DNA from: an uncultured Candidatus Saccharibacteria bacterium
Lineage (GTDB): Bacteria; Patescibacteriota; Minisyncoccia; Phycocordibacterales; UBA9973
Length of the DNA stretch: 64,000 nt
Reading direction: 5' to 3'
Assembly (NCBI GenBank): GCA_964554645.1
Contig: CAZKPK010000003.1
Location: 4,256 to 68,255, forward strand
Under the pieces are notes generated by a model, which saw nothing but the letters and a program-made list of their open reading frames with translations, did not search any database and was not told where the DNA came from. The position numbers were made by a program, and so were the translations under genes. Of the stretch, positions 3,267 to 56,459 are shown in pieces (position 1 is the first letter of the stretch; each line of letters starts with the position of its first letter).

Positions 3267-3344
3267 AAAGTTATTCTAACACAGCCAAAAAATTAGCAAA
3301 CTGTAAAAGTGCGTAAAAAGTTAATAATATGTTATTATATTCGC

Positions 3345-4295
3345 ATGGGTAAAAAAGTATTTTTATCAGGTGTTCAGCCCTCAGGCAAGCCTCATATTGG
3401 CAACTATTTTGGGGCGATGAAGCAATTTGTTGATTTGCAAGGGGAACATGATGGTTATGTTTTTATTGCTGATTATCACGCTCTGCATTCTCTCAGAAAT
3501 CCTAAAGAAATAAATGAAAACATAAAGAATGTTCTGCTTGATTATTTGGCGATTGGCCTTGATCTGAAAAAAGTGACATTTTTCAAACAAAGCGATATTT
3601 CCGAGCACACTGAACTTGCTTGGATTTTTGATACGATTACCACCATGCCGTATTTGATGCGCGCGCATGCTTTTAAAGATGCGCAGGCGAAGGATAAAGA
3701 AATTGATGTGGGTACTTTTAATTATCCTGTTTTAATGGCGGCGGACATTTTACTTTACGGTCCGGATCTAGTGCCGGTAGGCGCTGATCAGAAACAACAT
3801 GTGGAGATAGCTCGCGATATTGCGGAAAAATTTAATCACGCATACGGAGAAACTTTTAAATTGCCAAATCCAATGATTCTGAAAGATACGGCGGTTGTGC
3901 TAGGGACCGATGGGCGCAAAATGTCCAAGAGTTACGGCAACACTATTCCACTTTTTGCCGAGTATGAAGAAATAAAAAAGTGTGTGATGAGTATTATCAC
4001 TGATTCCGGAGAGGGGATTCCCAAAAATGTCTACGCGATACACAACTTGCTTCGCCCGGCCTCCGAGCTTCTGCCTATCTATGAAAGCAAGGCAGGGAAG
4101 TATAAAGAATTAAAAGAGCTTTTAATAGAAGATTTAGAAAAATTTATCGCGCCGCTCCGGGAAAAACGAAAAGAATTTGCCAAGGATATTCCCAAAGTGC
4201 TGGCGATTCTCAAAGCCGGCGGTGAAAAAGCTAAAAAAATTGCTTCCAAAAAAATGAATGAAGTCCGCGAGAAAATCGGGGTGAAGGTGTATTAG
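3345..4295 (+). CDS. trpS: tryptophanyl-tRNA synthetase
   Basis: Class I signatures HIGN and KMSKS, TrpRS-like length; start placed at ATG 3345 (MGKKVFLSGVQPSG). Confidence 0.9.
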   Translation: MGKKVFLSGVQPSGKPHIGNYFGAMKQFVDLQGEHDGYVFIADYHALHSLRNPKEINENIKNVLLDYLAIGLDLKKVTFFKQSDISEHTELAWIFDTITTMPYLMRAHAFKDAQAKDKEIDVGTFNYPVLMAADILLYGPDLVPVGADQKQHVEIARDIAEKFNHAYGETFKLPNPMILKDTAVVLGTDGRKMSKSYGNTIPLFAEYEEIKKCVMSIITDSGEGIPKNVYAIHNLLRPASELLPIYESKAGKYKELKELLIEDLEKFIAPLREKRKEFAKDIPKVLAILKAGGEKAKKIASKKMNEVREKIGVKVY

Positions 4296-4304
4296 AATGA
4301 AATA

Positions 4305-4610
4305 TTGAAAAATATGAAGCACGCCAATAAAAAAATTCCTGAATACAGAAAAGAATTGGTGGAAATTTTTGCTAAAATTTTGGGCAATAGAGAATTGATG
4401 GGCCTATTTTTGAAGGACATACTTACGCCGAATGAATTTGAAGCTTTATCTTTGAGATGGCAAATAGTCAAAAAATTAAATAAAGGAGAAACGCATCGAT
4501 CGGTAGTAGAGGATTTGGGTCTTGGGATGAGCACAGTAACCCGCGGGTCTCGGATGCTTCGCAATAAAAACGGCGGTTTCAATCTGGTTTTTAAAAAGCT
4601 AGGCCAATAG
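4305..4610 (+). CDS. TrpR/YerC-YecD family DNA-binding protein
   Basis: LTPNEFEALSLRW...GETHRSVVEDLGLGMSTVTRGSR matches the Trp-repressor-like YerC/YecD HTH; sits immediately after trpS. Confidence 0.65.
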   Translation: MKNMKHANKKIPEYRKELVEIFAKILGNRELMGLFLKDILTPNEFEALSLRWQIVKKLNKGETHRSVVEDLGLGMSTVTRGSRMLRNKNGGFNLVFKKLGQ

Positions 4611-5505: not shown

Positions 5506-6855
5506 ATGCGCAACAGGACTTATATCAAAGATTTAAAAGATAATGTCGGCAAAGAAATTATCATTGCTGGCTGGGTGGATGTCCGGCGCGATCAGGGGAA
5601 AATGGTTTTTTTTGATATGCGGGATATGACGGGCAAAGTGCAATGCGTGGCGTTGCCGACTAGAGCGGGAGTGATGGAAAAAGTGAAGGATATTAGGCTT
5701 GAATGGGTTTTAAAAGTTACCGGCATGGTCAACAAGCGTCCAATCAAAAATGTGAAGGCGGGATTTTTGAATGGCGATGTCGAACTTGAAGTGACAGACG
5801 TTGAAGTGTTCGCAAAGGCTGAACCACTTCCTTTTGATATGTCCCTTGACGGCTATAATTTAGAATTAACGACCGAGCTGGATAATCGCGCTCTGGTTTT
5901 GCGTCAACCGAAAGTGCAAGCGGTTTTCAAAGTGCAAGAGACAATCATAGATTCTTTTCGGGAATTTATGAAAAAAAATATGTTTTTCGAATTTCAGGCG
6001 CCGTCTATCACTCCGGCAGTTGCTGAAGGGGGTAGTGAAGTTTTTCAGCTTGATTATTTTGCTAAAAAAGCTTTCTTAACCCAGTCTCCTCAGTTGTATA
6101 AACAGATAGTTATGTCCGCTTTTGAAAGAGTTTTTTCCGTGAATAAAATTTTTCGCGCTGAACCAAGCGCGACCACCAGACATTTGACCGAAGTTGTATC
6201 ACTCGACGCGGAAATGGCTTTTATTGATGGCTGGGAAGATGTGCGGGATATGGCCGAAGCGACGGTTAAATTTATTTTGGAAAAAGTAGCCGAAAAAAAT
6301 TCCACCGAGTTGAAACTTTTAAAAGCGGAACTTCCGATAATGATAGAAAAAACCCCGACTTTTTCCCTGACGGAAGCGCAGGAAAAAATTTTTAAACATT
6401 TTAAGCGTGACGTGAGAGAAGAAAAAGATTTAAATCCGCAAGACGAAAGAGAGATATGTGAAATAGCAAAAAAAGAAACCGGTTCTGATTTCGTCTTTAT
6501 TTATGGCTATCCAACGCGCAAAAAACCTTTTTATGTTTATCCAAACCCAAAAAATCCAGAATTTAATGAGGGGATGGATTTATTGTGTCGCGGTTTGGAA
6601 TGGCTTTCTGGTGGACGCCGAATTAACAAATATGACCAGCTTTTGGAACACGTAAAATTATGGAAAATGGATCCCAAAAAAATTAAAATGTTTTTAGAAG
6701 CTTTCAAATACGGTGTCCCACCCGAAGGCGGTTTCGCTTTCGGCGCCGAGCGCATGACGATGCAACTTTTGGGACTTAAAAATATCCGGGAAGCTTGTAT
6801 GTTTCCCAGAGATATGGAGAGAATAGATGAAAGGCTCAATAGTGACGGTTACTAA
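5506..6855 (+). CDS. aspS: aspartyl-tRNA synthetase, archaeal/eukaryal short type (AsnRS not fully excluded)
   Basis: N-terminal OB fold; class II motifs FRAEPSATTRHLTEVVSLDAEMAF and GGFAFGAERMTMQLLGLKNIREACMFPRD; the LD.E signature favours AspRS. Confidence 0.75.
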   Translation: MRNRTYIKDLKDNVGKEIIIAGWVDVRRDQGKMVFFDMRDMTGKVQCVALPTRAGVMEKVKDIRLEWVLKVTGMVNKRPIKNVKAGFLNGDVELEVTDVEVFAKAEPLPFDMSLDGYNLELTTELDNRALVLRQPKVQAVFKVQETIIDSFREFMKKNMFFEFQAPSITPAVAEGGSEVFQLDYFAKKAFLTQSPQLYKQIVMSAFERVFSVNKIFRAEPSATTRHLTEVVSLDAEMAFIDGWEDVRDMAEATVKFILEKVAEKNSTELKLLKAELPIMIEKTPTFSLTEAQEKIFKHFKRDVREEKDLNPQDEREICEIAKKETGSDFVFIYGYPTRKKPFYVYPNPKNPEFNEGMDLLCRGLEWLSGGRRINKYDQLLEHVKLWKMDPKKIKMFLEAFKYGVPPEGGFAFGAERMTMQLLGLKNIREACMFPRDMERIDERLNSDGY

Positions 6856-8144: not shown

Positions 8145-8483
8145 ATGAAACAAACAGATTTGTTAAAGAAAAAATGTATATCGTGCGAGGGGAAAAGCAT
8201 TAAACCTCTAGATAGAGCTGGCGCGCAGGATTATTTAGATGAAACACCGGGTTGGGTTTTAGATAAAGATGTAAAGAAAATTTCCAAAGAATTTAAATTT
8301 AAGGATTTTATCGGAGCGATAAATTTCGTGGAAAAAGTGGCCGAGATTGCCGAAATGGAAGGGCATCATCCGGATATTCATATTCACTACAACAAAGTCT
8401 TGCTCGAACTCTGGACACACGCCATCGGCGGGCTTTCTGAAAACGACTTCATCGTCGCCGCCAAAATCGACGCACATAATTAG
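8145..8483 (+). CDS. pterin-4a-carbinolamine dehydratase
   Basis: EGHHPD...W.TH..GGLSE.D...A.KID signature of the PCD/DCoH family. Confidence 0.8.
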   Translation: MKQTDLLKKKCISCEGKSIKPLDRAGAQDYLDETPGWVLDKDVKKISKEFKFKDFIGAINFVEKVAEIAEMEGHHPDIHIHYNKVLLELWTHAIGGLSENDFIVAAKIDAHN

Positions 8484-8560
8484 TTTTTGAAATATGCATT
8501 TGACTTTTATTTTGTGGATGAATTATAATTATTTTATAAAAAATTTTCCAAAATAACAAT

Positions 8561-9235
8561 ATGTCACAAAGAGTAAAAATTAAAGTTCTCACAAAAACAA
8601 AACTTTGGTCTATCGTGCTTTTTTTACCCATTTTACCGGCGCTTATTTTCGGTGGTTGGCTTGCGCTTCATCAAGGTAATATATACATCTCATTTAAAAA
8701 TAGGCCACATGATATGCCGTATGCTGATAGTGCCAGGGACTATCAGGTCTGGGCAAAAATAGTGAATGGACCGTGGTTTGAAAACTTATTATTGGCAAAT
8801 GTGTATGATAATGGCTTAAATTCCTTTGGTTTAGATAAGAAATTTCCCATTTACACCAGATATCTTGACATAGATAATGATGGACAAAAAGAAATTGAAA
8901 TAATTGGAACTTATTATGGACCAGGTACAGTCAAATATTTATTAAAAAAGGAAGATGGAAAATATGAAATTGTGCATCATGTTGACGAGTGGGGCACCGA
9001 TAAAGAGGCTTTTTCTTCCGAGCAAATTAGTTTTTTAGATATGGATAATGATCTTCGACTAGAAGCGGCGACTGATTCCTTCCTTGATTACGAAAACGCT
9101 CCGGACCAGATTTGGACGAGTTACTATCGTTTCGATGGTGATCATTATCAATTTTACAAAAAAGATATAGTAAATTTCTCTGATTTTAAACGTCTCTTTG
9201 TTATGGCGCCGGATTATTATGCAAGTCGTCATTAG
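8561..9235 (+). CDS. hypothetical membrane-anchored protein with DxDxDG (FG-GAP/VCBS-like) motifs
   Basis: N-terminal TM segment; DIDNDGQKEIEI and DMDNDLRLE calcium-binding-like motifs; bracketed by a duplicated copy of the PCD gene 3' end. Confidence 0.45.
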   Translation: MSQRVKIKVLTKTKLWSIVLFLPILPALIFGGWLALHQGNIYISFKNRPHDMPYADSARDYQVWAKIVNGPWFENLLLANVYDNGLNSFGLDKKFPIYTRYLDIDNDGQKEIEIIGTYYGPGTVKYLLKKEDGKYEIVHHVDEWGTDKEAFSSEQISFLDMDNDLRLEAATDSFLDYENAPDQIWTSYYRFDGDHYQFYKKDIVNFSDFKRLFVMAPDYYASRH

Positions 9236-9243
9236 CAGTCCCT

Positions 9244-9290
9244 CCGAAAACGACTTCATCGTCGCCGCCAAAATAGATGCGCATAAATAA
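9244..9290 (+). repeat. diverged duplicate of the 3' end of the PCD gene (8439-8483)
   Basis: 29-bp identical core GAAAACGACTTCATCGTCGCCGCCAAAAT; the rest is about 80% identical. Confidence 0.8.
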
Positions 9291-9337
9291 AAACTTATAA
9301 CTCCACAATAGCAGAAACTTAAGTAAAAACACAAATT

Positions 9338-9367
9338 CCATAATAGCAACGGTCGTTGCTATTATGG
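9338..9367. repeat. family A intergenic palindrome CCATAATAGCAACGG-CCGTTGCTATTATGG type (copy 1)
   Basis: 14-bp perfect arms between convergent genes. Confidence 0.8.
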
Positions 9368-9589
9368 TAACAAGATTAAAAGTAAAAAATACAAAAGGGC
9401 GGGTCGTTTTCTTAAACGAGCACCGCCCAAGTTGTGCGTTTGGCAAGAACGCGATGTTAGGCCTTCTTTCTTTCCCCACAATGGACGCAGTAGAAGCCGG
9501 GGACACATCCCCAGTCACCCCTGGGCCACCTGATGCGATCTTCCTTGGTTTCTTTCCATATGTGTTTTCCCGTTGGGGATTTTTTACAT

Positions 9590-9976
9590 TCAGGCTTTTT
9601 CATTTTTTTCTTTCCCAATCGTTGTCCATTTTTCTGGTTCATGAATCATTGACCAAGCCCATTGGGCAGCTTGGTATGGGAAGGTTGCTATGCCACTCAT
9701 GAGATTAAAGGTGTAATCTCCTTGGCCAGGCTCGTTTGGGTTCATCATAAAAAAGCGCTTGCCTAGTTTTTGAATTTCAACAATACGCTCCTGTTGTGAA
9801 TCCCCCTTAACCATTATAACCACATCAGCATCCTCCGGTTTATCCACTTCTTTAATATCTCTTGAACGCAAGTTACTCACGAGCGTTTTAGATTTTGCGC
9901 GATCCAAAAGATTTTTACCGGAGACAAAAACATTGCCTTGATGTTTTTTCATATTTTGTTTTCGAACAACTATCAT
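9590..9976 (-). CDS. hypothetical protein
   Basis: ORF with protein-like composition; start placed at an internal Met (MIVVRK) because the upstream extension overlaps a terminator hairpin. Confidence 0.3.
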   Translation of the reverse strand: MIVVRKQNMKKHQGNVFVSGKNLLDRAKSKTLVSNLRSRDIKEVDKPEDADVVIMVKGDSQQERIVEIQKLGKRFFMMNPNEPGQGDYTFNLMSGIATFPYQAAQWAWSMIHEPEKWTTIGKEKNEKA

Positions 9977-10046
9977 ACTCTTATGGCGAGTAGCCATGCG
10001 TTTGTAACGGGACAACGGTCGCCTTCGCGTAAAGCTTCGGCAGACC

Positions 10047-10081
10047 AACGCAAAACCCCTTCCTAAAAACTTAGGAAGGGG
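10047..10081 (-). terminator. hairpin CCCCTTCCTAA-loop-TTAGGAAGGGG with a T-run on the minus strand
   Basis: 11-bp stem downstream of the 10113-10517 gene. Confidence 0.55.
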
Positions 10082-10112
10082 CTACATTACTTTCAGTATT
10101 TACCGCCTACGC

Positions 10113-10517
10113 TCAAGGCTTTGGCGTGTCAAAGAAATACAACCCTTTCCTAAGTTTGGAAGGGGTGTGATGGTTAAGACGATTCAAAATTAAACGGTAT
10201 CCGCCGAGAGATCCGCCTAGCCACTTGGCAATGCGGGCAATCGTGGAAGAGGACAGGCCGGTTCTTTCGCTGATGGCATTGTATTGCATATCTTGGGAAA
10301 GGAGGCGAGCGGCCTCCAAACGGTTTCCAAATTCTTTGATTTCGATCGGGGTCAAGAGGTCGCGCAGAAAGCGTTTTGCCTCATTTTCGTTTTTAAGCGC
10401 CAAAATTCCAGCCACCAGCTGCTTATTCTCTCGGGTTAACCAATCCGTGTCAGGCCCTATTTCTTTGATTAATCGGACTGTTTTTACTCTAGTATTATCA
10501 TTCATTCCTTTACTCAT
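10113..10517 (-). CDS. TrpR/YerC-YecD family DNA-binding protein (second paralog)
   Basis: FLRDLLTPIEIKEFGNRLEAARLL...ISERTGLSSSTIARI matches the TrpR-like HTH. Confidence 0.65.
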   Translation of the reverse strand: MSKGMNDNTRVKTVRLIKEIGPDTDWLTRENKQLVAGILALKNENEAKRFLRDLLTPIEIKEFGNRLEAARLLSQDMQYNAISERTGLSSSTIARIAKWLGGSLGGYRLILNRLNHHTPSKLRKGLYFFDTPKP

Positions 10518-10528
10518 ACATCTACTTT

Positions 10529-10562
10529 AGCAAACTAAAGTACTTTAGTCAAGTAAAGTAAA
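10529..10562. promoter_or_regulatory. candidate operator: overlapping palindromes CTTTAGcaaaCTAAAG and TACTTTAGtcaagTAAAGTA in the divergent promoter region
   Basis: Directly upstream of the TrpR-like gene start; TACTTT/AAAGTA half-sites. Confidence 0.4.
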
Positions 10563-15070: not shown

Positions 15071-15082
15071 TTGAGATAACAC

Positions 15083-15106
15083 AATAGCAACGGCCGTTCC
15101 TATTAT
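15083..15106. repeat. family A palindrome (copy 2, AATAGCAACGGCCGTTCCTATTAT)
   Basis: Sequence match to the other copies. Confidence 0.7.
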
Positions 15107-15119
15107 ACTATGATGCAAA

Positions 15120-30542: not shown

Positions 30543-30584
30543 CCATAATAACATAATAGACACGGCCGTTGTCATAGTGTTATC
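30543..30584. repeat. family A palindrome (copy 3, ..ATAATAGACACGGCCGTTGTCATAGTGTTAT..)
   Basis: Downstream of the purB stop. Confidence 0.65.
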
Positions 30585-30591
30585 TCATAAA

Positions 30592-33313: not shown

Positions 33314-34282
33314 TTAGATTGCGTATTTTTTTAGATTATTTTTGATTCTTTTTTCAATATTTCCGGTTTCGGCTACAAAAGGGATTCCGGTAATTTGCTC
33401 ATATATTTGTATATATCGGCGGGATAATTCCGCAATCATTTCCGGCGGAGCCGGAGGCATCACTTTGTCTTTATATGGATCAGAATGTTCTTTGAACCAT
33501 AAACGTAGAAATTCTTTGTCAAAATTTTCCGGCTCTAAGCCTTTATTTATTCTATCTTGATACGAATTCGCTTGCCAATATCTGGAAGAATCGGGCGTAT
33601 GAATCTCGTCTATCAGCACCACCTCTCCATTTTTCGCGAGTCCAAATTCATATTTTGTATCCACTAAAATCAATCCTTTCTTTAAAGCGATTTCCTGTCC
33701 ACGGGCAAAAAGTTTCAAAGCTGCGCTGGAAACTTTTTGCCAAACTTCCGGCGTCATTATTTTTTCCTCTAAAATAATTTTACTAGTCAGTGGTCTGTCG
33801 TGGGCTTCAAATTTTGTGGTAGGTGTAAGGACTGGCTTGTTTAGTTTTTGATTTTTATGCATGCCGTCGGGCAGAGTAAAATCTCCAAAATTTCTTTCTC
33901 CTTTTTGATACAAGGTCCAAAGAGAAGTTCCGGTTACTCCAGTAATATAACCTCGCGCCACCATTTCTACGGGAATTACCGCGCATTTCTTACCCACTAC
34001 CACATTCGGATCGGGAAAATCTAGAGCATGATTTTTCACGATATCTTTGGTGTTTTCAAACCAAAACTTGCTGATTTGCGTCAGCACTTGCCCTTTGCCA
34101 GGTATTAATGCTAAATTGCGATCAAAAGCCGAGTATCGGTCTGTGGAAATCAGAATGATTTTATCACCTTGGCTATAAACATCTCTGACTTTGCCAGTAT
34201 ATTTTTCTCCTAGGTTCAAATTTTTTCCGCCCGAGGCGGATCCGCCTTTGGCGGAGAAATTTGTTTTTTCAAGTATATTCAT
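33314..34282 (-). CDS. purC: SAICAR synthetase; the called N-terminus likely over-extends into a family D repeat
   Basis: KVRDVYSQGDKIILISTDRYSAFD... SAICAR synthetase core. The true start is probably the TTG near 34206 (MNLGEKYTGKVRDVY); the upstream AKGGSASGGK is repeat-encoded. Confidence 0.85.
   Translation of the reverse strand: MNILEKTNFSAKGGSASGGKNLNLGEKYTGKVRDVYSQGDKIILISTDRYSAFDRNLALIPGKGQVLTQISKFWFENTKDIVKNHALDFPDPNVVVGKKCAVIPVEMVARGYITGVTGTSLWTLYQKGERNFGDFTLPDGMHKNQKLNKPVLTPTTKFEAHDRPLTSKIILEEKIMTPEVWQKVSSAALKLFARGQEIALKKGLILVDTKYEFGLAKNGEVVLIDEIHTPDSSRYWQANSYQDRINKGLEPENFDKEFLRLWFKEHSDPYKDKVMPPAPPEMIAELSRRYIQIYEQITGIPFVAETGNIEKRIKNNLKKYAI
34221..34258. repeat. family D GC-rich palindrome TTTTCCGCCCGAGGCGGATCCGCCTTTGGCGGAGAAA
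   Basis: Lies between purM and the purC core. Confidence 0.75.
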
Positions 34283-35956: not shown

Positions 35957-35980
35957 GGGTTTATCTTATCATTATTATGG

Positions 35981-36016
35981 AAAATAAAAAAGGGACCGAA
36001 GAATTTTCGTCGGTCC
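35981..36016 (-). terminator. hairpin GGACCGACG-loop-CTTCGGTCC followed by a T-run (minus strand)
   Basis: Lies between purH and purE. Confidence 0.55.
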
Positions 36017-36317
36017 TTGCTAGGTCGATAGTTTTTGTTCATCCGCCTAAAGAACAATCAATCTCACCTTCCGGAAAATGAAATGGCACCCCCTCCATGT
36101 CCATCAAAGGCGGTGCCTTCTTGTAAGGAGGTTTCGTAGATTCAATTTCGCATTCATGAATTTGAGCTGGCGGTGTTGGAAGTTGCTCGTTTTTTTCTTT
36201 TTGCATATTTTTGCGATTTTCTGACTCCTATTCAAAGAACAACCTAAAAAGTTCAAGGAACAAAAGCCAAGATTAAAATTAACAGAATATCTAAATAAAA
36301 TCAAGTAAATGTATTTT

Positions 36318-36338
36318 GCGTTAGGTCTTGCCTAACGC
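36318..36338. repeat. family B hairpin GCGTTAGGtcttgCCTAACGC (copy 1, just downstream of purH)
   Basis: Identical 21-mer at 44305-44325. Confidence 0.75.
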
Positions 36339-36345
36339 AAGGTTG

Positions 36346-37899
36346 TTAATGCTTAAAATGTCGAAAGCCGGTTGTGACCATGGCAATTTTATATTTATTC
36401 GCCATGTCTATTGATGCTTGGTCATTTTTTGATCCGCCGGGCTGGATAATCGCGCTGATGCCGTTCTTACCGGCCAGTTCTACACAATCCGGGAAAGGAA
36501 AAAATGCTTCAGAAGAAAGCGCCGCGCCTTTGAGGGAGAATTTGAATTTTTTTGCTTTGTCAATCGCTTGTTTCAAAGCGTCGATGCGCGATGTCTGTCC
36601 GCAACCCATAGAAATGAGCGCGCCATTTTTTACCAGAGCGACCGAATTTGATTTAAGATGTTTTGTCGCTACTGAGGCTATCAGCATATCTCCTACTTCT
36701 TTTTTTGTTGGCTTTCTTTTGGTAACTGTCGTGAGGTCAGATTCTTTTTCTATTTGCGTGTCGCGATCTTGTGTGAGAATTCCAGTAAAGCAAGTCCGGA
36801 TTTGTTTTTTAGGAAGAGCTGGGTTCTTCCATTTCAAAATTCGGCAATTTTTTTTCTCCTTGAATATTTCCAAAGCTTTTTCTGTAAAATCCGGAGCGAT
36901 AATTACTTCCACAAATAGATTTTGTTTTTTTACAAGCTTGGCAATATCTTCGCCAATAGTCCTATTAGTAGCAAGTATTCCGCCAAACGCCGAAAGCGGG
37001 TCAGCTTTGTAAGCAGATTTATAGGCTTCCAGAAGTTGACTTTCTTTTTTACACACAGCTAAACCGCAGGCATTCAGATGCTTGATGATAGCGAAAGCAG
37101 GCTCCTTAAAATCATAAACAATCATAATGGCTGATTCCGTGTCTATGAGATTATTGTAAGAAAGCTCTTTGCCGTGGAGTTGGACGAAATTTTCCCCTAG
37201 ATTGCCTATAAATTCCCCTTTCTGATGCGGATTTTCTCCGTAGCGTAGCGCGGTGTTACTGTCAAAGGGCACCTTTGACACACTTTGAAAATATCCGCGA
37301 ATGGCAGTGTCGTAAGCGCTAGTTATTTCAAAAGCGTTGCCGGCAAATTTTTTTCTTTCTTCTAATGTGGTTTCGTTACCATTTTTCAATATTGAGCAGA
37401 ACTCCTGATATTGGTGTTTTGAAGGAATGATAACCACATCGTTAAAATTTTTTGCTGCCGCGCGGATAAGCGCTACTCCGCCAATATCAATTTTTTCAAT
37501 GATTTCTTCCTTCGCCTCGCCGGAGCTTTGTGCGAAGGTAGGTTCTTTTGTATATTTTGCCAGCGTTTCTTCAAATGGATAAAGATCCACAATCACCAGA
37601 TCAATGTTTGCTATTTTATATTTAATTTTTTCTTTTTGATCTTCGCTATTATCCCGCCGATTTAAAATACCGCCAAAAATCTGCGGTTGAAGCGTTTTTA
37701 CTCTCCCGCCGAAAATTGCGGGGAAATTAGTGACAGTCTCCACTTCGGTTACAGGAATTTTCAGTTTGCGGATAAATTCCGCCGTGCCGCCGGTAGAAAT
37801 AATTTTTACGTTATGTTTAGCCAGAAGCCTGACAATTTCATCAAGTCCCTCTTTATTAAAAACCGAAATAAGCGCGCTAGAAATTTTCTTCGAATTCAT
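36346..37899 (-). CDS. purH: AICAR transformylase / IMP cyclohydrolase
   Basis: ALISVFNKEGLDEIVRLLAKHNVKIISTGGTA MGS domain plus AICARFT region. Confidence 0.9.
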   Translation of the reverse strand: MNSKKISSALISVFNKEGLDEIVRLLAKHNVKIISTGGTAEFIRKLKIPVTEVETVTNFPAIFGGRVKTLQPQIFGGILNRRDNSEDQKEKIKYKIANIDLVIVDLYPFEETLAKYTKEPTFAQSSGEAKEEIIEKIDIGGVALIRAAAKNFNDVVIIPSKHQYQEFCSILKNGNETTLEERKKFAGNAFEITSAYDTAIRGYFQSVSKVPFDSNTALRYGENPHQKGEFIGNLGENFVQLHGKELSYNNLIDTESAIMIVYDFKEPAFAIIKHLNACGLAVCKKESQLLEAYKSAYKADPLSAFGGILATNRTIGEDIAKLVKKQNLFVEVIIAPDFTEKALEIFKEKKNCRILKWKNPALPKKQIRTCFTGILTQDRDTQIEKESDLTTVTKRKPTKKEVGDMLIASVATKHLKSNSVALVKNGALISMGCGQTSRIDALKQAIDKAKKFKFSLKGAALSSEAFFPFPDCVELAGKNGISAIIQPGGSKNDQASIDMANKYKIAMVTTGFRHFKH

Positions 37900-37956
37900 T
37901 ATGCTGAAATACTACCATAATTAAATTTTTACTCAAATTAAAAAAAATAATACTAG

Positions 37957-37989
37957 CATAATGGCAACAGCCGTTGCCATTAGTGAAAA
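37957..37989. repeat. family A palindrome (copy 4, TAATGGCAACagccGTTGCCATTA)
   Basis: 10-bp perfect arms. Confidence 0.7.
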
Positions 37990-38041: not shown

Positions 38042-38647
38042 TTAATTAGTAACTCGCAACTTTGGCTGAACATTCGGCACCACCTTGCTGGGTGTGGGCT
38101 GAGAGAAACTTACTGGTGACCGCACTAGCAAGGTGTGGAGACACCAGTCTGCCAGCGGTAGCACCACATTGAAGTTCCGGTGCATGTATCGGTGATGAAG
38201 CAGGTGATGCCCGTTGAGCCGGAAAAAGATTCCGATACGTTCCACTCTCCGGCTAGGAGATTTGGGTAGATGCATACACCAATGCAGATACTCATACATT
38301 GAATAGTATGCAATACCAGCGGTGATTGAACCCAAAAGGAGCCACCAATTGCTTACTAAAAGGCAGGTGACTAAAAAGGGATATTGACAAACCATGATTA
38401 AAACAGGTCCGTTCCACCAGGCCATGGGGATTTTTTGCTTGTCCTGTTTATTTTCATCGATGAGATGGTAATTTCTTTCTGAACCATATTCACGATGATG
38501 TATCTTCGCGTGCGCCTCAAAGGCGTATGTGAAAGTGAAACCGAAAATTTTGACTGGCTTATGCATCACATAGCGATGCAATGTCCATTCAAAAAATGAG
38601 TCGACAAACATGCCGACAATGAAACCAACTAGAAGGAACAAAATCAT
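38042..38647 (-). CDS. fatty-acid hydroxylase / sterol-desaturase superfamily membrane protein (GC-rich, likely acquired)
   Basis: Histidine boxes HRYVMH, HAKIHH, HHLLHH; visibly higher GC than flanking DNA; flanked by diverged direct repeats. Confidence 0.6.
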   Translation of the reverse strand: MILFLLVGFIVGMFVDSFFEWTLHRYVMHKPVKIFGFTFTYAFEAHAKIHHREYGSERNYHLIDENKQDKQKIPMAWWNGPVLIMVCQYPFLVTCLLVSNWWLLLGSITAGIAYYSMYEYLHWCMHLPKSPSRRVERIGIFFRLNGHHLLHHRYMHRNFNVVLPLADWCLHTLLVRSPVSFSQPTPSKVVPNVQPKLRVTN

Positions 38648-38743: not shown

Positions 38744-38895
38744 AACTTTATTAAAAACCGAAATAAGCGCGGAGTTAATCTTTTTCTTCATGATGAAGAA
38801 ATATTAACACAATTTTGTTTTTACTCAAACAAAAAAGCCAGTACTTGATTTTCCTCCTTTCGGGGTGCACTGGACTTTTCGAAAGTTAATCAGGA
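38744..38895. repeat. diverged duplicate of the purH 5' end and upstream region (compare 37851-38050)
   Basis: 26-bp identical run CTTTATTAAAAACCGAAATAAGCGCG, then about 65-70% identity including a remnant MKKKINSALISVF reading frame. Confidence 0.7.
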
Positions 38896-44249: not shown

Positions 44250-44266
44250 ATTTAAATTTAGTAATG

Positions 44267-44296
44267 CCATAATAACAACGGCCGTTGCTATTATGG
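44267..44296. repeat. family A palindrome (copy 5, CCATAATAACAACGGCCGTTGCTATTATGG)
   Basis: Lies between convergent purA and purD. Confidence 0.8.
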
Positions 44297-44304
44297 TATC
44301 TTCT

Positions 44305-47547: not shown

Positions 47548-47549
47548 AA

Positions 47550-48350
47550 TTATTTTCCGCCAAAGGCGGATCCGCCTTGGGCGGAAAAGTATTCAACTGC
47601 GTTTTTAAAAATTTGAAGCCCTTTTCCCTCTTTTGAAACTTTTTTATTCCCACCAGAGGAACGGGCAAGCATTTGCCACATCGGACTTTGGTGAGAAAAC
47701 ATTGCCCGTTCCGGATGAGGCATCATTCCCAAAACTCTTCCATTATAGGCTAAAACTCCCGCAATGCAAAAGTCTGAGCCATTTGGATTATATTCTAAAT
47801 TTTGAAATTTACAAATTTCTCCTTTTATATAAATGAAAGCTGTTTGGTTATTTTTCTTCAAATTTTTATATCCTCCTGCGCCTATCACATAACGTCCTTC
47901 GCCATGCGCTATCGGGAGCGATATTTTTTTGATTCCCTTCAGCCAGGGGCTATTTCCAATCGACTCTAAGTCGACCCATCTATCAATATATTTGCCATTT
48001 TTATTGTAAGTCAAAGCCCCCGGCAGAATTCCTAAATTAGTCATAATTTGAAATCCATTGCAGATGCCTATGGCCAGAGTGTCGCGCGATAAAAATTCCG
48101 CTAGTTCTTTTGCCAAATGATTTTTTAATTTATTAGCGTAGGCTTTCCCGCTGCCAGTATCGTCGCCGTAAGAAAATCCTCCCGGGAAAGCCAAAATCTG
48201 GTATTCAGACAGCATTTTTGGTTTGGCAATGAGATCATTGATATGCACGATGTCCGCGTTTCCCCCAACCGACTCAAAAGCGAATTTTGTTTCTTCTTCG
48301 CAATTGAGCCCGTAGCCGGACATTATTATAACTTTTGGTTTATTTTTCAT
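47550..48350 (-). CDS. purQ: FGAM synthase glutaminase subunit PurQ; C-terminal tail encoded by a family D repeat
   Basis: GICNGFQ, HGEGR and MPHPER motifs; ends ...YFSAQGGSAFGGK*, which is repeat-derived. Confidence 0.8.
   Translation of the reverse strand: MKNKPKVIIMSGYGLNCEEETKFAFESVGGNADIVHINDLIAKPKMLSEYQILAFPGGFSYGDDTGSGKAYANKLKNHLAKELAEFLSRDTLAIGICNGFQIMTNLGILPGALTYNKNGKYIDRWVDLESIGNSPWLKGIKKISLPIAHGEGRYVIGAGGYKNLKKNNQTAFIYIKGEICKFQNLEYNPNGSDFCIAGVLAYNGRVLGMMPHPERAMFSHQSPMWQMLARSSGGNKKVSKEGKGLQIFKNAVEYFSAQGGSAFGGK
47553..47588. repeat. family D GC-rich palindrome TTTTCCGCCAAAGGCGGATCCGCCTTGGGCGGAAAAG
   Basis: Clearest copy; inside the purQ 3' end, 3 nt before the purF start. Confidence 0.8.
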
Positions 48351-50139: not shown

Positions 50140-50175
50140 AATAGTATAATAGACACGGCCGTTGCTATTGTGCTA
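50136..50175. repeat. family A palindrome (copy 6, ..ATAATAGACACGGCCGTTGCTATTGTG..)
   Basis: Downstream of the purL stop. Confidence 0.65.
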
Positions 50176-55589: not shown

Positions 55590-55819
55590 TAGGCAATCTG
55601 CTAGTCTTCTCTCATTTTAAAAACTAAAAAAGATAGTTTTTTAGAAAAATTTATTATATCAAATTTACTAACTGGGAGACTTAGAATTAGATCTAAATTA
55701 TCACCACTGCTAGGAGTTTGGTGCGACGTTGGAACCGCTTTGATGTTTAAAAAAGATTTATTATAGATATCCACAGCACTATTTGTAATAGAAACAATAA
55801 AAGCGTATAATTCTCGAAT

Positions 55820-56122
55820 ATGAAAAGATATAAAAATATTTTGATTCCGTTAGGGTCTTATCTTATTGCTTTTGTTTGGTACCTTATTTTTATGTCCTCC
55901 TCATCGTCATTCTCACAATTTGTTCCCTATAAAAGTGGAGATATAATGAACAAAGTGGTAATAAGTGTTTATTTTTTATTTATTATCGTTGGACTATTTT
56001 TTGGATTCAAAAGTAAAACAAAAGACTCTTCTCTTCTAAATAATTTAGTAGTTTTAATCGGTCTATTGTTGTTGATAGGATCTTTTCTGCTTTATAGTTT
56101 TTCTGCAGGTTGGACTGTTTAA
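55820..56122 (+). CDS. small 3-TM membrane protein (tandem paralog 1)
   Basis: About 40-bp promoter/5' end (CGTATAATTCTCGAATATGAAAA.ATATAAAAATAT) duplicated at 56138. Confidence 0.4.
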   Translation: MKRYKNILIPLGSYLIAFVWYLIFMSSSSSFSQFVPYKSGDIMNKVVISVYFLFIIVGLFFGFKSKTKDSSLLNNLVVLIGLLLLIGSFLLYSFSAGWTV

Positions 56123-56153
56123 GGTCTTCAATGAAGACGTATAATTCTCGAAT

Positions 56154-56459
56154 ATGAAAAAATATAAAAATATTTGTATTGCTTTTGCTTTATACGTAAT
56201 TGCCGTTTTAGTTTTTTTTTCATGGACGTTTTTCGTACCAGCCGCTAGCTCTCCAGGTATAGCTAATTCAATTGGATTAGGTTTAGGTGTTATATTGATT
56301 TTGTCCGGAATATTTTTTGGTCTTAGAAGTGTAGTAGCAAAAGAATCTACATGGGCTGGTTATATTGTGATAATTGTTGGTATTCTTACATTTGTCGCAC
56401 CTTCTATTCTAAGTAGCTATACATTTTGGGGGTTTCTATATAATTTAGGCATACATTAA
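56154..56459 (+). CDS. small 3-TM membrane protein (tandem paralog 2)
   Basis: Same duplicated promoter/start block; leaderless -10 TATAAT 7 nt before the ATG. Confidence 0.4.
   Translation: MKKYKNICIAFALYVIAVLVFFSWTFFVPAASSPGIANSIGLGLGVILILSGIFFGLRSVVAKESTWAGYIVIIVGILTFVAPSILSSYTFWGFLYNLGIH

What the first reader, a model, noticed from the sequence alone, without database searches (positions are those of the whole stretch)
8439..9290. Second insertion footprint: hypothetical membrane protein gene flanked by duplicated 3' end of the PCD gene
The last 45 bp of the pterin-4a-carbinolamine dehydratase gene (8439-8483, encoding ...ENDFIVAAKIDAHN*) reappear at 9244-9290 immediately after the stop of the 8561-9235 ORF. 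A 29-bp core is identical. The architecture matches the purH case: one cargo gene between direct repeats of a neighbouring gene end. Two independent examples in one window point to a recurring integration mechanism that targets gene termini and regenerates them.
Basis: seen in the sequence. Interest (0 to 1): 0.55.

Follow-up and report, generated by a model that had tools for sequence, protein, structure and literature searches.

The report
Displaced gene end marks accessory-gene insertion
A 64-base leftover of the original end of a housekeeping gene (PCD) sits just after an inserted accessory membrane-protein gene in a Nomurabacteria genome, showing that new genes are added at this spot while the housekeeping gene is kept intact with a replacement end; this is a known kind of footprint, here with no integrase in sight.

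Summary
Window 8420-8483 (end of the PCD gene) recurs at 9227-9290 with 81% identity and a 29-nt exact core (8439-8467 = 9246-9274), far beyond chance (z=25). Three independent assemblies agree. A close relative (L091) has PCD followed directly by the sequence that follows copy 2 here, with no cargo. So copy 2 is the displaced original PCD end. The ~0.75-kb stretch 8484-9226 (strong promoter plus a 224-aa membrane ORF, dN/dS ~0.09) is an insertion that came with a replacement PCD terminus. All five tail differences are third-codon changes, and both tails occur as real PCD ends in relatives, so the copies are two alleles rather than a decayed in-situ duplication. The cargo family is rare, sits in other slots elsewhere, and has a clipped 3' end here. 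Two more relatives (L007, L024) carry different cargo at the same PCD edge with duplicated PCD-terminal codons, and L019 keeps an internally deleted PCD remnant. No integrase, inverted repeats, attC or shared core were found. The most likely mechanism is host homology-anchored recombination at the edge of a conserved gene block. A decayed integrase-borne island of the e14/icd type is the main rival. The purH case is a mirror image at a 5' end. Interest is moderate.

The parts
8145..8483 (+). Intact pterin-4a-carbinolamine dehydratase (PCD) gene, 112 aa. It is the last gene of the conserved block AspRS-RibK-EamA-PCD.
   Evidence: Pfam PF01329 E=5.7e-32; NCBIfam 4a-hydroxytetrahydrobiopterin dehydratase; synteny in ~40 relatives.
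8420..8483 (+). Copy 1 of the repeat, the working 3' end of PCD. Arm 8420-8438, exact core 8439-8467, tail 8468-8483 (IDAHN*).
   Evidence: The tail is identical to the PCD tail of relative L005.
8500..8529 (+). Near-consensus sigma-70-type promoter (TTGACT-18-TATAAT, 11/12) for the cargo, inside the inserted segment 8484-9226.
   Evidence: The segment 8484-8560 has no counterpart downstream of PCD in L091.
8561..9235 (+). Cargo: a 224-aa ORF with an N-terminal membrane helix and FG-GAP-like DxDxDG motifs. The family is rare (4 homologs). The last 3 codons and the stop are read from PCD-derived sequence.
   Evidence: Pfam shows only weak FG-GAP_3. 4 homologs among 5.8e9 proteins. They sit in other genomic contexts. 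dN/dS 0.09 vs L085. Family homology ends at 9226.
9227..9290 (+). Copy 2, the displaced original PCD 3' end, now a gene fragment. Arm 9227-9245 (diverged, 12/19), exact core 9246-9274, tail 9275-9290 (IDAHK*).
   Evidence: The tail plus downstream is collinear with L091 and L007. Tail differences from copy 1 are all at third-codon positions.
9291..9436 (.). Ancestral sequence downstream of PCD: a spacer, the palindromic hairpin 9338-9367, and the terminator (hairpin ~9397-9428) of the minus-strand slot gene.
   Evidence: Orthologous to L091 8331-8440 and L007 5316-5440. Hairpin dG -12.2, z=-7.6.
9437..10051 (-). Neighbouring variable slot, holding a 61-aa Cys-containing ORF (9457-9642) and a 120-152-aa ORF (9590-10048). 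L091, L019 and L006 have PRA-CH here, and L092-L101 have a 68-aa gene.
10052..10084 (-). Terminator hairpin of the TrpR-family gene (10113-10517, minus strand), 97% conserved. It forms the right border of the variable slot.
37851..37944 (-). Second example, copy 1: the working 5' end of purH (gene 36346-37899) plus its promoter region. Exact core 37851-37876.
38042..38647 (-). Second example, cargo: a 201-aa membrane ORF that NCBI names 'fatty acid hydroxylase'.
38746..38836 (-). Second example, copy 2: a remnant purH promoter plus the first 15 codons (MKKKINSALISVFNK) followed by a stop. It adjoins the upstream neighbours (82-aa ORF, guaA).
   Evidence: z=15.

Best explanation
What it is (shown): 9227-9290 is the original 3' end of the PCD gene. 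It was pushed downstream when ~0.75 kb of foreign DNA (a strong promoter plus one accessory membrane-protein gene) was added at the outer edge of the conserved AspRS-RibK-EamA-PCD block. The incoming DNA brought another allele of the PCD terminus, so PCD stays full length. The old end remains as a 64-nt gene fragment, like icdC next to prophage e14 in E. coli.

How it happened (inferred): the host's own homologous recombination acted on DNA from a related Nomurabacterium, with no dedicated integrase. The most likely topology is a Campbell-type single crossover within the shared PCD-end sequence (the 29-nt identical core). This duplicates the homologous piece on both sides of the insert. A one-sided-homology event with an illegitimate joint at the cargo's clipped 3' end is a close variant.

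The PCD end is hit repeatedly because it is where homology between related genomes stops. Accessory genes therefore accumulate and are exchanged there and in the adjoining slot between two conserved terminators. The two 29-nt direct repeats could also delete the cargo again and restore a single PCD ending in ...AHK.
For: 1. Empty sites: L091 (PCD 85% aa, same flanking genes) and L006 have PCD followed by PRA-CH and TrpR, with no cargo.
2. Ancestral context: copy 2 plus its downstream sequence aligns to L091's PCD end plus downstream, including the terminator. Copy 1's downstream does not.
3. Two alleles: all 5 tail differences are at third-codon positions (P=0.004). Both tails exist as real PCD ends in relatives: L005 matches copy 1 at 16/16 and L010 matches copy 2 at 15/16.
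4. The cargo moves and its joints are imprecise. Homologs lie between trpS and a small TrpR gene (L086-L089) or next to an unrelated gene (L085). The cargo's 3' end is clipped here and its 5' end is clipped in L085.
5. Recurrence without a common site. L007 has PCD, then a GHKL-ATPase gene, then a 15-nt PCD tail remnant (13/15 to copy 2, P~9e-6), then the same palindrome and terminator block. L024 has a 30-nt exact repeat that starts in PCD's last codons and brackets 2.5 kb of 55-57% GC DNA. L019 has an internally deleted PCD remnant.
6. No recombinase: none in the insert, and no integrase or transposase family recurs among 98 PCD-adjacent variable ORFs. There are no terminal inverted repeats and no attC-like fold.
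7. The adjoining slot is swapped between conserved terminators.
8. Precedents: single crossover of a circle with partial homology gives a duplication of the homologous piece, whereas HFIR usually gives deletions (PMC3240628). Natural competence and homology-driven integration have been shown in Patescibacteria (PMC10633639).
Against: - The 19-nt arm of copy 2 carries 7-8 changes, including replacements of invariant PCD residues (AIGGLS to VISSPS), while the adjacent 29-nt core has none (Fisher P=0.0007). A single recent event copying a working PCD allele does not predict this. It needs either a long-lived non-coding arm (as in an element) or an old event whose core and tail were later refreshed by gene conversion or recombination. 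The arm is also 72% similar to the reverse complement of PCD 8425-8449, so its origin is ambiguous.
- The core is also identical in L091. Its identity between the copies may therefore reflect local conservation rather than a crossover.
- 29 nt is near the lower limit for RecA-type recombination (own knowledge).
- L007's remnant is only ~15 nt with no identical core, which a single crossover cannot explain without later trimming.
- No donor, circular form or empty-site allele was found: there are 0 core matches in JGI metagenomes and viral contigs, and a K-ending PCD is absent from the protein collection.
- The rest of the MAG could not be searched for an integrase acting in trans.
Confidence: 0.5

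Rival explanations
1. It is the remnant of an integrase-borne island of the e14/icd or tRNA-island type. An element with a tyrosine integrase inserted into the PCD 3' end by site-specific recombination within the 29-nt core and supplied a replacement gene end. It later lost its integrase and most of its cargo by deletion, leaving attL, one gene and attR (a CIME-like relic). Alternatively it is mobilised in trans.
For: - The layout is exactly attL/attR-like. Copy 1 has a host-type arm, the core and a different allele's tail. Copy 2 has a non-PCD-like arm, the core, a PCD-type tail and the ancestral downstream sequence.
- A long-lived element explains why the arm is decayed while the core and tail are pristine.
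- The clipped cargo end fits an internal deletion that ran up to attR.
- The architecture matches icd/icdC around e14 (PMC13626634).
- The purH site has the same logic at a 5' end.
Against: - No integrase lies in the insert or next to it.
- No integrase family recurs in the PCD-adjacent regions of relatives.
- The inserts at the same edge in L007 and L024 use different repeat segments with no shared core.
- The PCD and purH cores are unrelated.
- The only recombinase in the window is a large serine recombinase beside tRNA-Gln. That type exchanges strands at a 2-bp crossover and does not produce 29-64-nt repeats (own knowledge).
- The cargo family is never seen with a PCD end elsewhere.
Confidence: 0.25
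2. It arose in two steps. A second PCD allele arrived together with the cargo just upstream of the resident PCD, by ordinary recombination with a relative. A later deletion then removed the redundant resident PCD from the cargo's last codons to 64 nt before the PCD stop.
For: - L019 shows this process caught midway at the same locus. It has an intact PCD plus a second PCD reduced to its first 11 and last 13 codons.
- The deletion joint would explain the clipped cargo end.
- Remnant lengths vary: 64 nt here and 15 nt in L007.
- The tail differences look allelic.
Against: - The remnant's arm should then be ordinary PCD coding sequence, but it is not, while the core next to it is perfect.
- It needs two events at both PCD and purH, each ending 45-65 nt from a gene terminus.
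- No relative with two full PCD copies flanking a cargo was found among ~45 loci.
Confidence: 0.13
3. It is an in-situ duplication. The insertion happened at staggered breaks, or by template switching, which copied the 64-nt PCD end on both sides (a long target-site duplication). The copies then diverged.
For: - L024's repeat is a perfect 30-mer around clearly foreign high-GC DNA. That is hard to explain by prior homology.
- The arm's similarity to the reverse complement of PCD, with a 7-nt exact inverted match, could be a template-switch scar.
Against: - All five third-codon positions of the tail differ, while none of about ten in the core do.
- Both tails are natural PCD alleles.
- Neutral decay of copy 2 would not spare the core and tail while changing 40% of the arm.
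Confidence: 0.07
4. It is not a footprint. Copy 2 is a functional element (a small ORF, regulatory RNA or recombination switch), or a mis-assembly.
For: A 30-aa ORF (9198-9290) can be drawn over it.
Against: - Three independent assemblies are identical.
- It has no fold beyond chance (z=0.27) and no Rfam match.
- Its differences from copy 1 are not adenine-specific, and no reverse transcriptase is present, so it is not a DGR.
- The fragment is absent from close relatives.
Confidence: 0.03

Closest known systems
Prophage e14 (and phage 21) in the E. coli icd gene, with the icdC C-terminal pseudogene
   Same: An intact housekeeping gene runs into the inserted DNA, which supplies a replacement 3' end. 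The original 3' end is left as a gene fragment on the far side. The two ends differ mainly by synonymous or conservative changes. Recombination between them would restore a chimeric but working gene (PMC13626634; window).
   Different: e14 is a 15-kb prophage with its own integrase and a defined att site. Here the insert is ~0.75 kb with one gene and no recombinase. The neighbouring genomes use different repeat segments, and the cargo's end is clipped.
Campbell-type single-crossover integration of a circular molecule with partial homology, as distinct from homology-facilitated illegitimate recombination (HFIR)
   Same: It produces an insert flanked by a duplication of part of the homologous locus. 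In E. coli conjugation experiments, 56 of 60 candidate events were of this type, with duplications of 109-950 bp (PMC3240628). It uses host recombination only.
   Different: The homology here is only 64 nt with 29 identical, shorter than in those experiments. No circular intermediate is known. HFIR proper usually deletes recipient DNA rather than duplicating it.
Minimal mobile elements of Neisseria (different genes exchanged between conserved flanking genes through transformation and homologous recombination)
   Same: The slot between the terminator at ~9397-9428 and the TrpR terminator at 10052-10084 holds PRA-CH, a 68-aa gene, or the 61-aa plus 120-aa ORFs in different relatives. Its flanks are conserved and there is no mobility gene. 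The concept is described in PMC3787668 (the definition of MMEs is partly from my own knowledge).
   Different: Minimal mobile elements are clean replacements that leave no duplicated gene end. The PCD-cargo-PCD' structure is additive.
tRNA- and gene-end-targeting genomic islands that leave partial target repeats, including integrase-less relics (CIMEs; cargo-only islands in Prochlorococcus tycheposon hotspots) - from my own knowledge
   Same: Hotspots accumulate accessory genes between direct repeats of a target-gene end. Some units lack an integrase.
   Different: Those hotspots reuse one att core per integrase family. No shared core and no integrase were found here.

Membership tests
Integrase-mediated integrative element that regenerates its target gene end (e14/icd type) | Direct repeats (attL/attR) with an identical core at the insert borders | tested here: met
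   The 29-nt exact core is 8439-8467 = 9246-9274.
Integrase-mediated integrative element that regenerates its target gene end (e14/icd type) | The target gene is kept intact by an element-borne replacement terminus, and the original terminus is displaced with the ancestral flank | tested here: met
   PCD is full length. Copy 2 plus its downstream sequence is orthologous to L091's PCD end plus downstream.
Integrase-mediated integrative element that regenerates its target gene end (e14/icd type) | An integrase (tyrosine or serine recombinase) gene lies within the element | tested here: not met
   The only ORF between the repeats is the 224-aa cargo, which has no recombinase domain. No recombinase family recurs next to PCD in relatives.
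Integrase-mediated integrative element that regenerates its target gene end (e14/icd type) | The same att core is reused by independent insertions | tested here: not met
   The window's repeat covers -64 to 0, L007's covers about -15 to 0 (12/15, no identical run), and L024's covers -8 to +22 with a different sequence. The purH core is unrelated.
Campbell-type single-crossover (host recombination) insertion | The insert is flanked by a duplication of the homologous segment, and the hybrid copies carry allelic differences on opposite sides of an identical tract | tested here: met
   Experimental precedent is in PMC3240628.
Campbell-type single-crossover (host recombination) insertion | A circular donor molecule and dependence on RecA | not testable with these tools
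   This needs read-level junction searches or genetics. No donor was found in the collections.
Homology-facilitated illegitimate recombination | One homologous end and one illegitimate joint at 3-10 bp microhomology, usually with deletion of recipient DNA | tested here: inconclusive
   The cargo end is clipped at 9226/9227, but no clear microhomology is visible. Recipient DNA is duplicated rather than deleted (one search gives the norm).
Integron gene cassette | A promoterless ORF followed by an attC (structured imperfect inverted repeat), with an integron integrase and attI nearby | tested here: not met
   The cargo has its own 11/12 promoter. 9225-9300 has no fold beyond chance (z=0.27). No intI was found in the annotated genes.
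IS element, transposon or MITE | Terminal inverted repeats, a short (2-14 bp) target duplication, and a transposase | tested here: not met
   There are no terminal inverted repeats at the insert borders. The repeat is 64 nt long. There is no transposase.
Diversity-generating retroelement (template/variable repeat at a gene's 3' end) | Adenine-specific differences between the repeats, and a reverse transcriptase nearby | tested here: not met
   The differences are C>A, C>T, A>G, T>A and G>A. No reverse transcriptase was found among the annotated ORFs.
Minimal mobile element (replacement between conserved flanks) | Different gene content between the same conserved flanks in related genomes, with no mobility genes | tested here: met
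   This holds for the adjoining slot 9437-10051 only. The PCD-cargo-PCD' unit itself is additive, not a replacement.

The most novel reading that the evidence does not exclude
The cargo units are recombinase-free mobile cassettes that carry a spare copy of a housekeeping gene's terminus as a portable homology arm. Recombination between the two repeats releases a circle made of the cargo plus one gene end. After uptake by a related, naturally competent Patescibacterium, that circle re-inserts by a single crossover into the same gene end, always regenerating the gene. The arm on the cargo side is never expressed and therefore decays, while the core and tail are kept functional by selection each time they become the working gene end. 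This matches the asymmetry seen here. It would be a self-propagating form of gene mobility that needs only host RecA and conserved gene ends.
Probability: 0.12. Interest if true: 0.7.

Novelty: new variant of a known kind. Interest (0 to 1): 0.4.

Why it matters
How the tiny, streamlined genomes of CPR/Patescibacteria gain accessory genes is poorly known, and few mobile elements have been described in them. This locus gives a concrete, datable example. A surface or membrane ORFan gene was added at the edge of a conserved gene block while the housekeeping gene was kept intact. The same edge is occupied by different accessory genes in related genomes: a restriction-enzyme-like ATPase in L007 and high-GC foreign DNA in L024. 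If host recombination alone does this, conserved gene ends act as general docking sites for gene flow between related episymbionts. Displaced gene-end fragments could then be used as markers to find and date such events. If an unseen integrase is responsible, PCD and purH ends would be new attachment sites in this phylum. In either case the structure itself is a known type of footprint, so the value lies in the setting and in the absence of a recombinase rather than in a new principle.

Tried and rejected
- Extending PCD homology upstream of 9227: nothing beyond 63-64 nt at DNA or protein level.
- Searching for the donor or empty site. The exact core gave 0 hits in JGI metagenomes and 0 in viral contigs. 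The cargo has no viral relatives. A hypothetical ancestral PCD ending in K is not in the 15-billion-protein collection.
- Linking the palindrome CCATAATAGCAACGGNCGTTGCTATTATGG to the insertion. It occurs at 5-6 intergenic sites and near both inserts. However, L091 has a degenerate copy and L007 a perfect copy at the orthologous place in the ancestral downstream block. It is therefore not part of the insert.
- Structure of the cargo. AlphaFold2 on the 5-sequence alignment gave a mean pLDDT of 35, which is unusable, so no fold search was run.
- purH comparison. Only one close relative was found (L102, 74% aa), and its upstream region is not syntenic, so the ancestral context of the purH remnant could not be tested.
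- Defence-system annotation of the window's cargo, the 120-aa and 61-aa ORFs and the purH cargo: no PADLOC hits.
- A third footprint candidate downstream of purB (z=5.3) is AT-rich chance similarity.
- Rejected readings: integron cassette, IS/MITE, DGR and mis-assembly (see membership tests).
- The repeats in L016, L018 and L035 between 'after PCD' and 'upstream of TrpR' are copies of an operator-like palindrome (TACTTTAG...CTAAAGTA), not gene-end remnants.
- First attempt at the remnant census timed out. It was rerun successfully.
Full report
**Observation.**
The window comes from a Candidatus Nomurabacteria (Patescibacteria) MAG, GCA_016186455.1, contig JACPLP010000015.1. The last 64 nt of a 112-aa pterin-4a-carbinolamine dehydratase gene recur at 9227-9290. 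The gene is PCD, 8145-8483, with Pfam PF01329 at E=5.7e-32. The repeat is 63/64 nt at 81% identity without gaps, and its 29-nt exact core is 8439-8467 = 9246-9274.

The match is far beyond chance (z=25.9). In a scan of all 33 intergenic regions of the window against nearby gene termini, only this site and the purH site stand out. The NCBI contig and Logan assemblies of two other sequencing runs are identical over 8145-9600, so it is not a mis-assembly.

**Anatomy.**
I divide each copy into three pieces:
- **Arm** (19 nt, 8420-8438 / 9227-9245): 12/19 identical.
- **Core** (29 nt): 29/29 identical.
- **Tail** (16 nt including the stop, 8468-8483 / 9275-9290): 11/16 identical.

Between the copies lie a near-consensus promoter (TTGACT-18-TATAAT, 8500-8529) and a 224-aa ORF (8561-9235). 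The ORF has an N-terminal hydrophobic helix and weak FG-GAP-like motifs.

The ORF is a real gene. Its dN/dS against its closest homolog (L085, 77% aa) is about 0.09. The family is very rare, with four homologs among 5.8 billion clustered proteins. A structure prediction was unusable (pLDDT 35).

**Which copy is original.**
Across about 40 related MAGs the order AspRS-RibK-EamA-PCD-[variable]-(TrpR)-(LUD)-PepN-ScpA-ScpB is conserved. In some relatives PCD abuts PepN directly. None of the 80 loci has the cargo.

The closest relative found is L091 (PCD 85% aa), which has the same genes upstream. It reads PCD -> <- PRA-CH <- TrpR, with no cargo. L091's PCD end and the 110 nt after it, including a terminator, align to the window's copy 2 and its downstream sequence (9243-9436). 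They do not align to the sequence after copy 1.

Copy 2 is therefore the original PCD end, still attached to its ancestral flank. The segment 8484-9226 is inserted, together with the terminus that now completes PCD. This is the layout of icd / e14 / icdC in E. coli (PMC13626634).

**The copies are two alleles, not a decayed duplicate.**
All five tail differences are at third-codon positions (ATC/ATA, GAC/GAT, GCA/GCG, AAT/AAA, TAG/TAA; P=0.004). Both tails exist as working PCD ends in relatives: L005 equals copy 1's tail at 16/16, and L010 matches copy 2's tail at 15/16. An in-situ target duplication followed by neutral decay does not predict this.

The core is not generally conserved; relatives differ from it at 2-11 of 29 positions. 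It is, however, identical in L091. Its identity between the copies may therefore reflect either a crossover tract or local conservation in this sub-clade.

**The joints are imprecise and the cargo moves.**
Cargo-family homology ends at 9226 (...GATTATTATGCAAG|). The closest homologs continue R-K-stop or R-P-K-stop. The window's gene reads S-R-H-stop from PCD-derived sequence.

Elsewhere the cargo sits in different places:
- In L086-L089 it lies between the tRNA-synthetase gene and a small TrpR-family gene. Those two genes are adjacent in this window at 3309-4610.
- In L085 it lies against an unrelated gene that clips its 5' end, with no PCD fragment nearby.

There are no terminal inverted repeats at the insert's borders. 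The fragment has no attC-like fold. No recombinase lies between the repeats.

**Recurrence at the same edge.**
- **L007** (PCD 82% aa) has an intact PCD, then a 499-aa GHKL-ATPase gene resembling BbrUII/HgiDII-type restriction enzymes. Next come 27 nt and then GAAGCGCATAACTAA (EAHN*). This matches the window's copy-2 tail at 13/15 (P~9e-6). It is followed, collinearly, by TTAAGTAAAAA, the same palindrome, the same terminator and a homolog of the window's 61-aa ORF.
- **L024** has a perfect 30-nt repeat that begins in PCD's last codons. It brackets 2.5 kb of 55-57% GC DNA in a ~37% GC genome, with no integrase and no RNA gene.
- **L019** keeps a second PCD reduced to its first 11 and last 13 codons, 1.3 kb from the intact gene.

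The three repeats share no common core. A Pfam scan of 98 variable ORFs next to PCD in relatives found ordinary metabolic genes: PRPP synthetase, nitroreductase, biopterin-dependent hydroxylase, GTP cyclohydrolases, PTPS, SAM synthetase and PRA-CH. No integrase or transposase family recurred.

Beside the insert, the stretch 9437-10051 lies between two conserved terminators. It holds PRA-CH, a 68-aa gene, or the 61-aa and 120-aa ORFs in different lineages. This is a clean replacement slot of the Neisseria 'minimal mobile element' kind.

**The purH case.**
purH is on the minus strand (36346-37899). The repeat (37851-37944 vs 38746-38836; 26-nt exact core, 78-83% elsewhere, one 3-nt indel) covers its first 16 codons and its promoter region. 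A 201-aa membrane ORF with its own promoter lies between the copies.

The remnant encodes a plausible alternative purH start (MKKKINSALISVFNK, then stop) and adjoins the upstream neighbours. The logic is therefore the mirror image of the PCD case. The two inserts share no sequence apart from the palindrome. The only close purH relative (L102) is not syntenic upstream, so the ancestral context could not be tested.

Genuine gene-terminus remnants are rare. I counted about 4 in 675 genes of Nomurabacteria-like loci and 2 in 763 genes of control loci. Two in one 64-kb window is notable, but the phenomenon is not clearly a clade-wide habit.

**Mechanism.**
Shown:
- This is an insertion relative to close relatives.
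- The gene end was displaced and replaced.
- The two ends are different alleles.
- The cargo joint is imprecise.
- The site is hit recurrently, with different cargo and different repeat extents.
- No recombinase is visible.

Inferred: host homologous recombination with DNA from related Nomurabacteria, anchored in the conserved block whose homology ends at PCD's stop.

A Campbell-type single crossover within the shared PCD-end sequence best fits the duplication. In E. coli, such events gave duplications of the homologous piece in 56 of 60 cases, whereas HFIR typically deletes recipient DNA (PMC3240628). Natural competence and homology-driven integration are demonstrated in Patescibacteria (PMC10633639).

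The main rival is a decayed integrase-borne island. That reading explains one awkward fact better. Copy 2's arm has 7-8 changes in 19 nt, including replacements of invariant PCD residues, next to a flawless 29-nt core (P=0.0007). A non-coding element arm would decay in that way. Alternatively, the event is old, as the shared remnant in L007 may suggest, and the core and tail were later refreshed by gene conversion or recombination with insert-free relatives. The arm is also 72% similar to the reverse complement of PCD 8425-8449, which leaves its origin open.

**Verdict.**
The idea of a dedicated terminus-targeting mechanism is not supported. The structure is a known kind of footprint (e14/icd-like, Campbell-type) in an unusual form and setting: one gene, no recombinase, at both a 3' and a 5' gene end, in a CPR genome. 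Interest is moderate.

Noticed in passing
window 9338-9367, 15076-15111, 37958-37985, 44264-44299, 50146-50171, ~30555-30585; L007 5339-5368: A family of perfect or near-perfect palindromes (CCATAATAGCAACGGNCGTTGCTATTATGG). There are 5 sites against 0.02 expected, plus a degenerate sixth after purB. All lie just after gene ends in intergenic DNA, and they form strong hairpins (z=-7.6 and -5.1). One site (37958) shows changes on both arms that keep pairing. Among 181 loci the core was found only in this genome and L007. They could be generic terminator-like hairpins or a REP-like element.
   Followed up: partly
window 59743-62675: A small integrated element beside tRNA-Gln. It has a rolling-circle Rep (REP_ORF2-G2P, 60401-61153, E=4.8e-19) and a 504-aa large serine recombinase (61150-62664) whose 3' end overlaps tRNA-Gln (62604-62675, minus strand). 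A LOOT RNA (RF03000, 74.7 bits) lies at 59743-59853.
   Followed up: no
window 9437-10084; L091 8441-8956; L092 8397-8768: A gene slot bounded by two conserved terminators holds different genes in close relatives: PRA-CH in L091, L019 and L006; a 68-aa gene in L092-L101; and 61-aa plus 120-152-aa ORFs here. The TrpR terminator hairpin (10052-10084) is 97% conserved, while the flanking coding DNA is 70-85%.
   Followed up: partly
window 9457-9642 (-) and 9590-10048 (-): A 61-aa ORF ending ...DWGCVPGFYCVHCGERKKA is homologous to the C-terminus of a 142-aa membrane protein in L007. It overlaps the 3' end of the larger ORF in another frame. The GC-rich 9450-9584 stretch is coding sequence, not an RNA. 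Neither ORF has a Pfam match.
   Followed up: partly
L019 4683-4757: An internally deleted PCD pseudogene, with MSNLLRKRCVP* fused to NDFILAAKIDAHT*. It lies after ribH, 1.3 kb upstream of the intact PCD, with PRA-CH and TrpR in between.
   Followed up: yes
L024 6336-6365 / 8887-8916 and 8934-8981 / 9679-9737: A perfect 30-nt direct repeat starts in PCD's last codons and gives PCD an odd ...GNKTYL* end. It brackets 2.5 kb of 55-57% GC DNA containing a 426-aa ORF with no Pfam match and a HAD-like gene. Just beyond it, the 5' end of a Ser_hydrolase gene is repeated downstream of that gene.
   Followed up: partly
L034 5651-5798 / 6352-6499; L036 5581-5679 / 6578-6676: In two other relatives the PCD gene itself is flanked by long direct repeats (148 nt at 93%; 99 nt at 95%). 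The L034 repeat contains a hairpin with compensatory changes (CTAGCGAAGCTTCGCTAG vs CTGGCGGAGCTCCGCCAG). PCD may itself be a movable unit there.
   Followed up: no
L012 1099-1174 and 4865-4940: A 76-nt element (97% identical copies). Each copy sits inside a different ~19-nt inverted repeat, as if a small element had inserted into the loops of two unrelated hairpins.
   Followed up: no
window 10523-10560; L016 7577-7601, L018 6198-6227, L035 6100-6135: Operator-like palindromes (TACTTTAG..CTAAAGTA) lie upstream of the TrpR-family gene. A second copy occurs just after PCD in three relatives. They are probably binding sites of that regulator.
   Followed up: partly
window 5506-6855 and orthologous positions in L005-L058: The AspRS gene at the same syntenic position falls into three identity classes against the window's protein (34-39%, 47-54%, 76-84%), while neighbouring genes stay at 60-88%. 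This suggests in-place replacement by distant versions of the gene.
   Followed up: no
window 35957-36345: About 390 nt, including a 55-aa ORF, separate purH from purE here. In the relative L102, purE follows purH after 8 nt. This may be another small insertion inside the purine cluster.
   Followed up: no
window 9223-9254 vs 8425-8449: The arm of copy 2 is 72% similar (18/25) to the reverse complement of the PCD arm and core start. There is a 7-nt exact inverted match, AAGTCGT / ACGACTT, spanning the cargo-PCD joint. It could be a template-switch scar or chance.
   Followed up: no
window 34219-34262 and 47548-47593: A second family of twin palindromes (..TTCCGCCnnAGGCGGATCCGCCTTnGGCGGA..) occurs at two intergenic sites inside the purine-biosynthesis gene cluster.
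   Followed up: no
window 55795-56459: Two tandem paralogous ORFs of 100 and 101 aa (55820-56122, 56154-56459) have repeated upstream and 5' regions (75 nt, 79%). Neither has a Pfam match.
   Followed up: no
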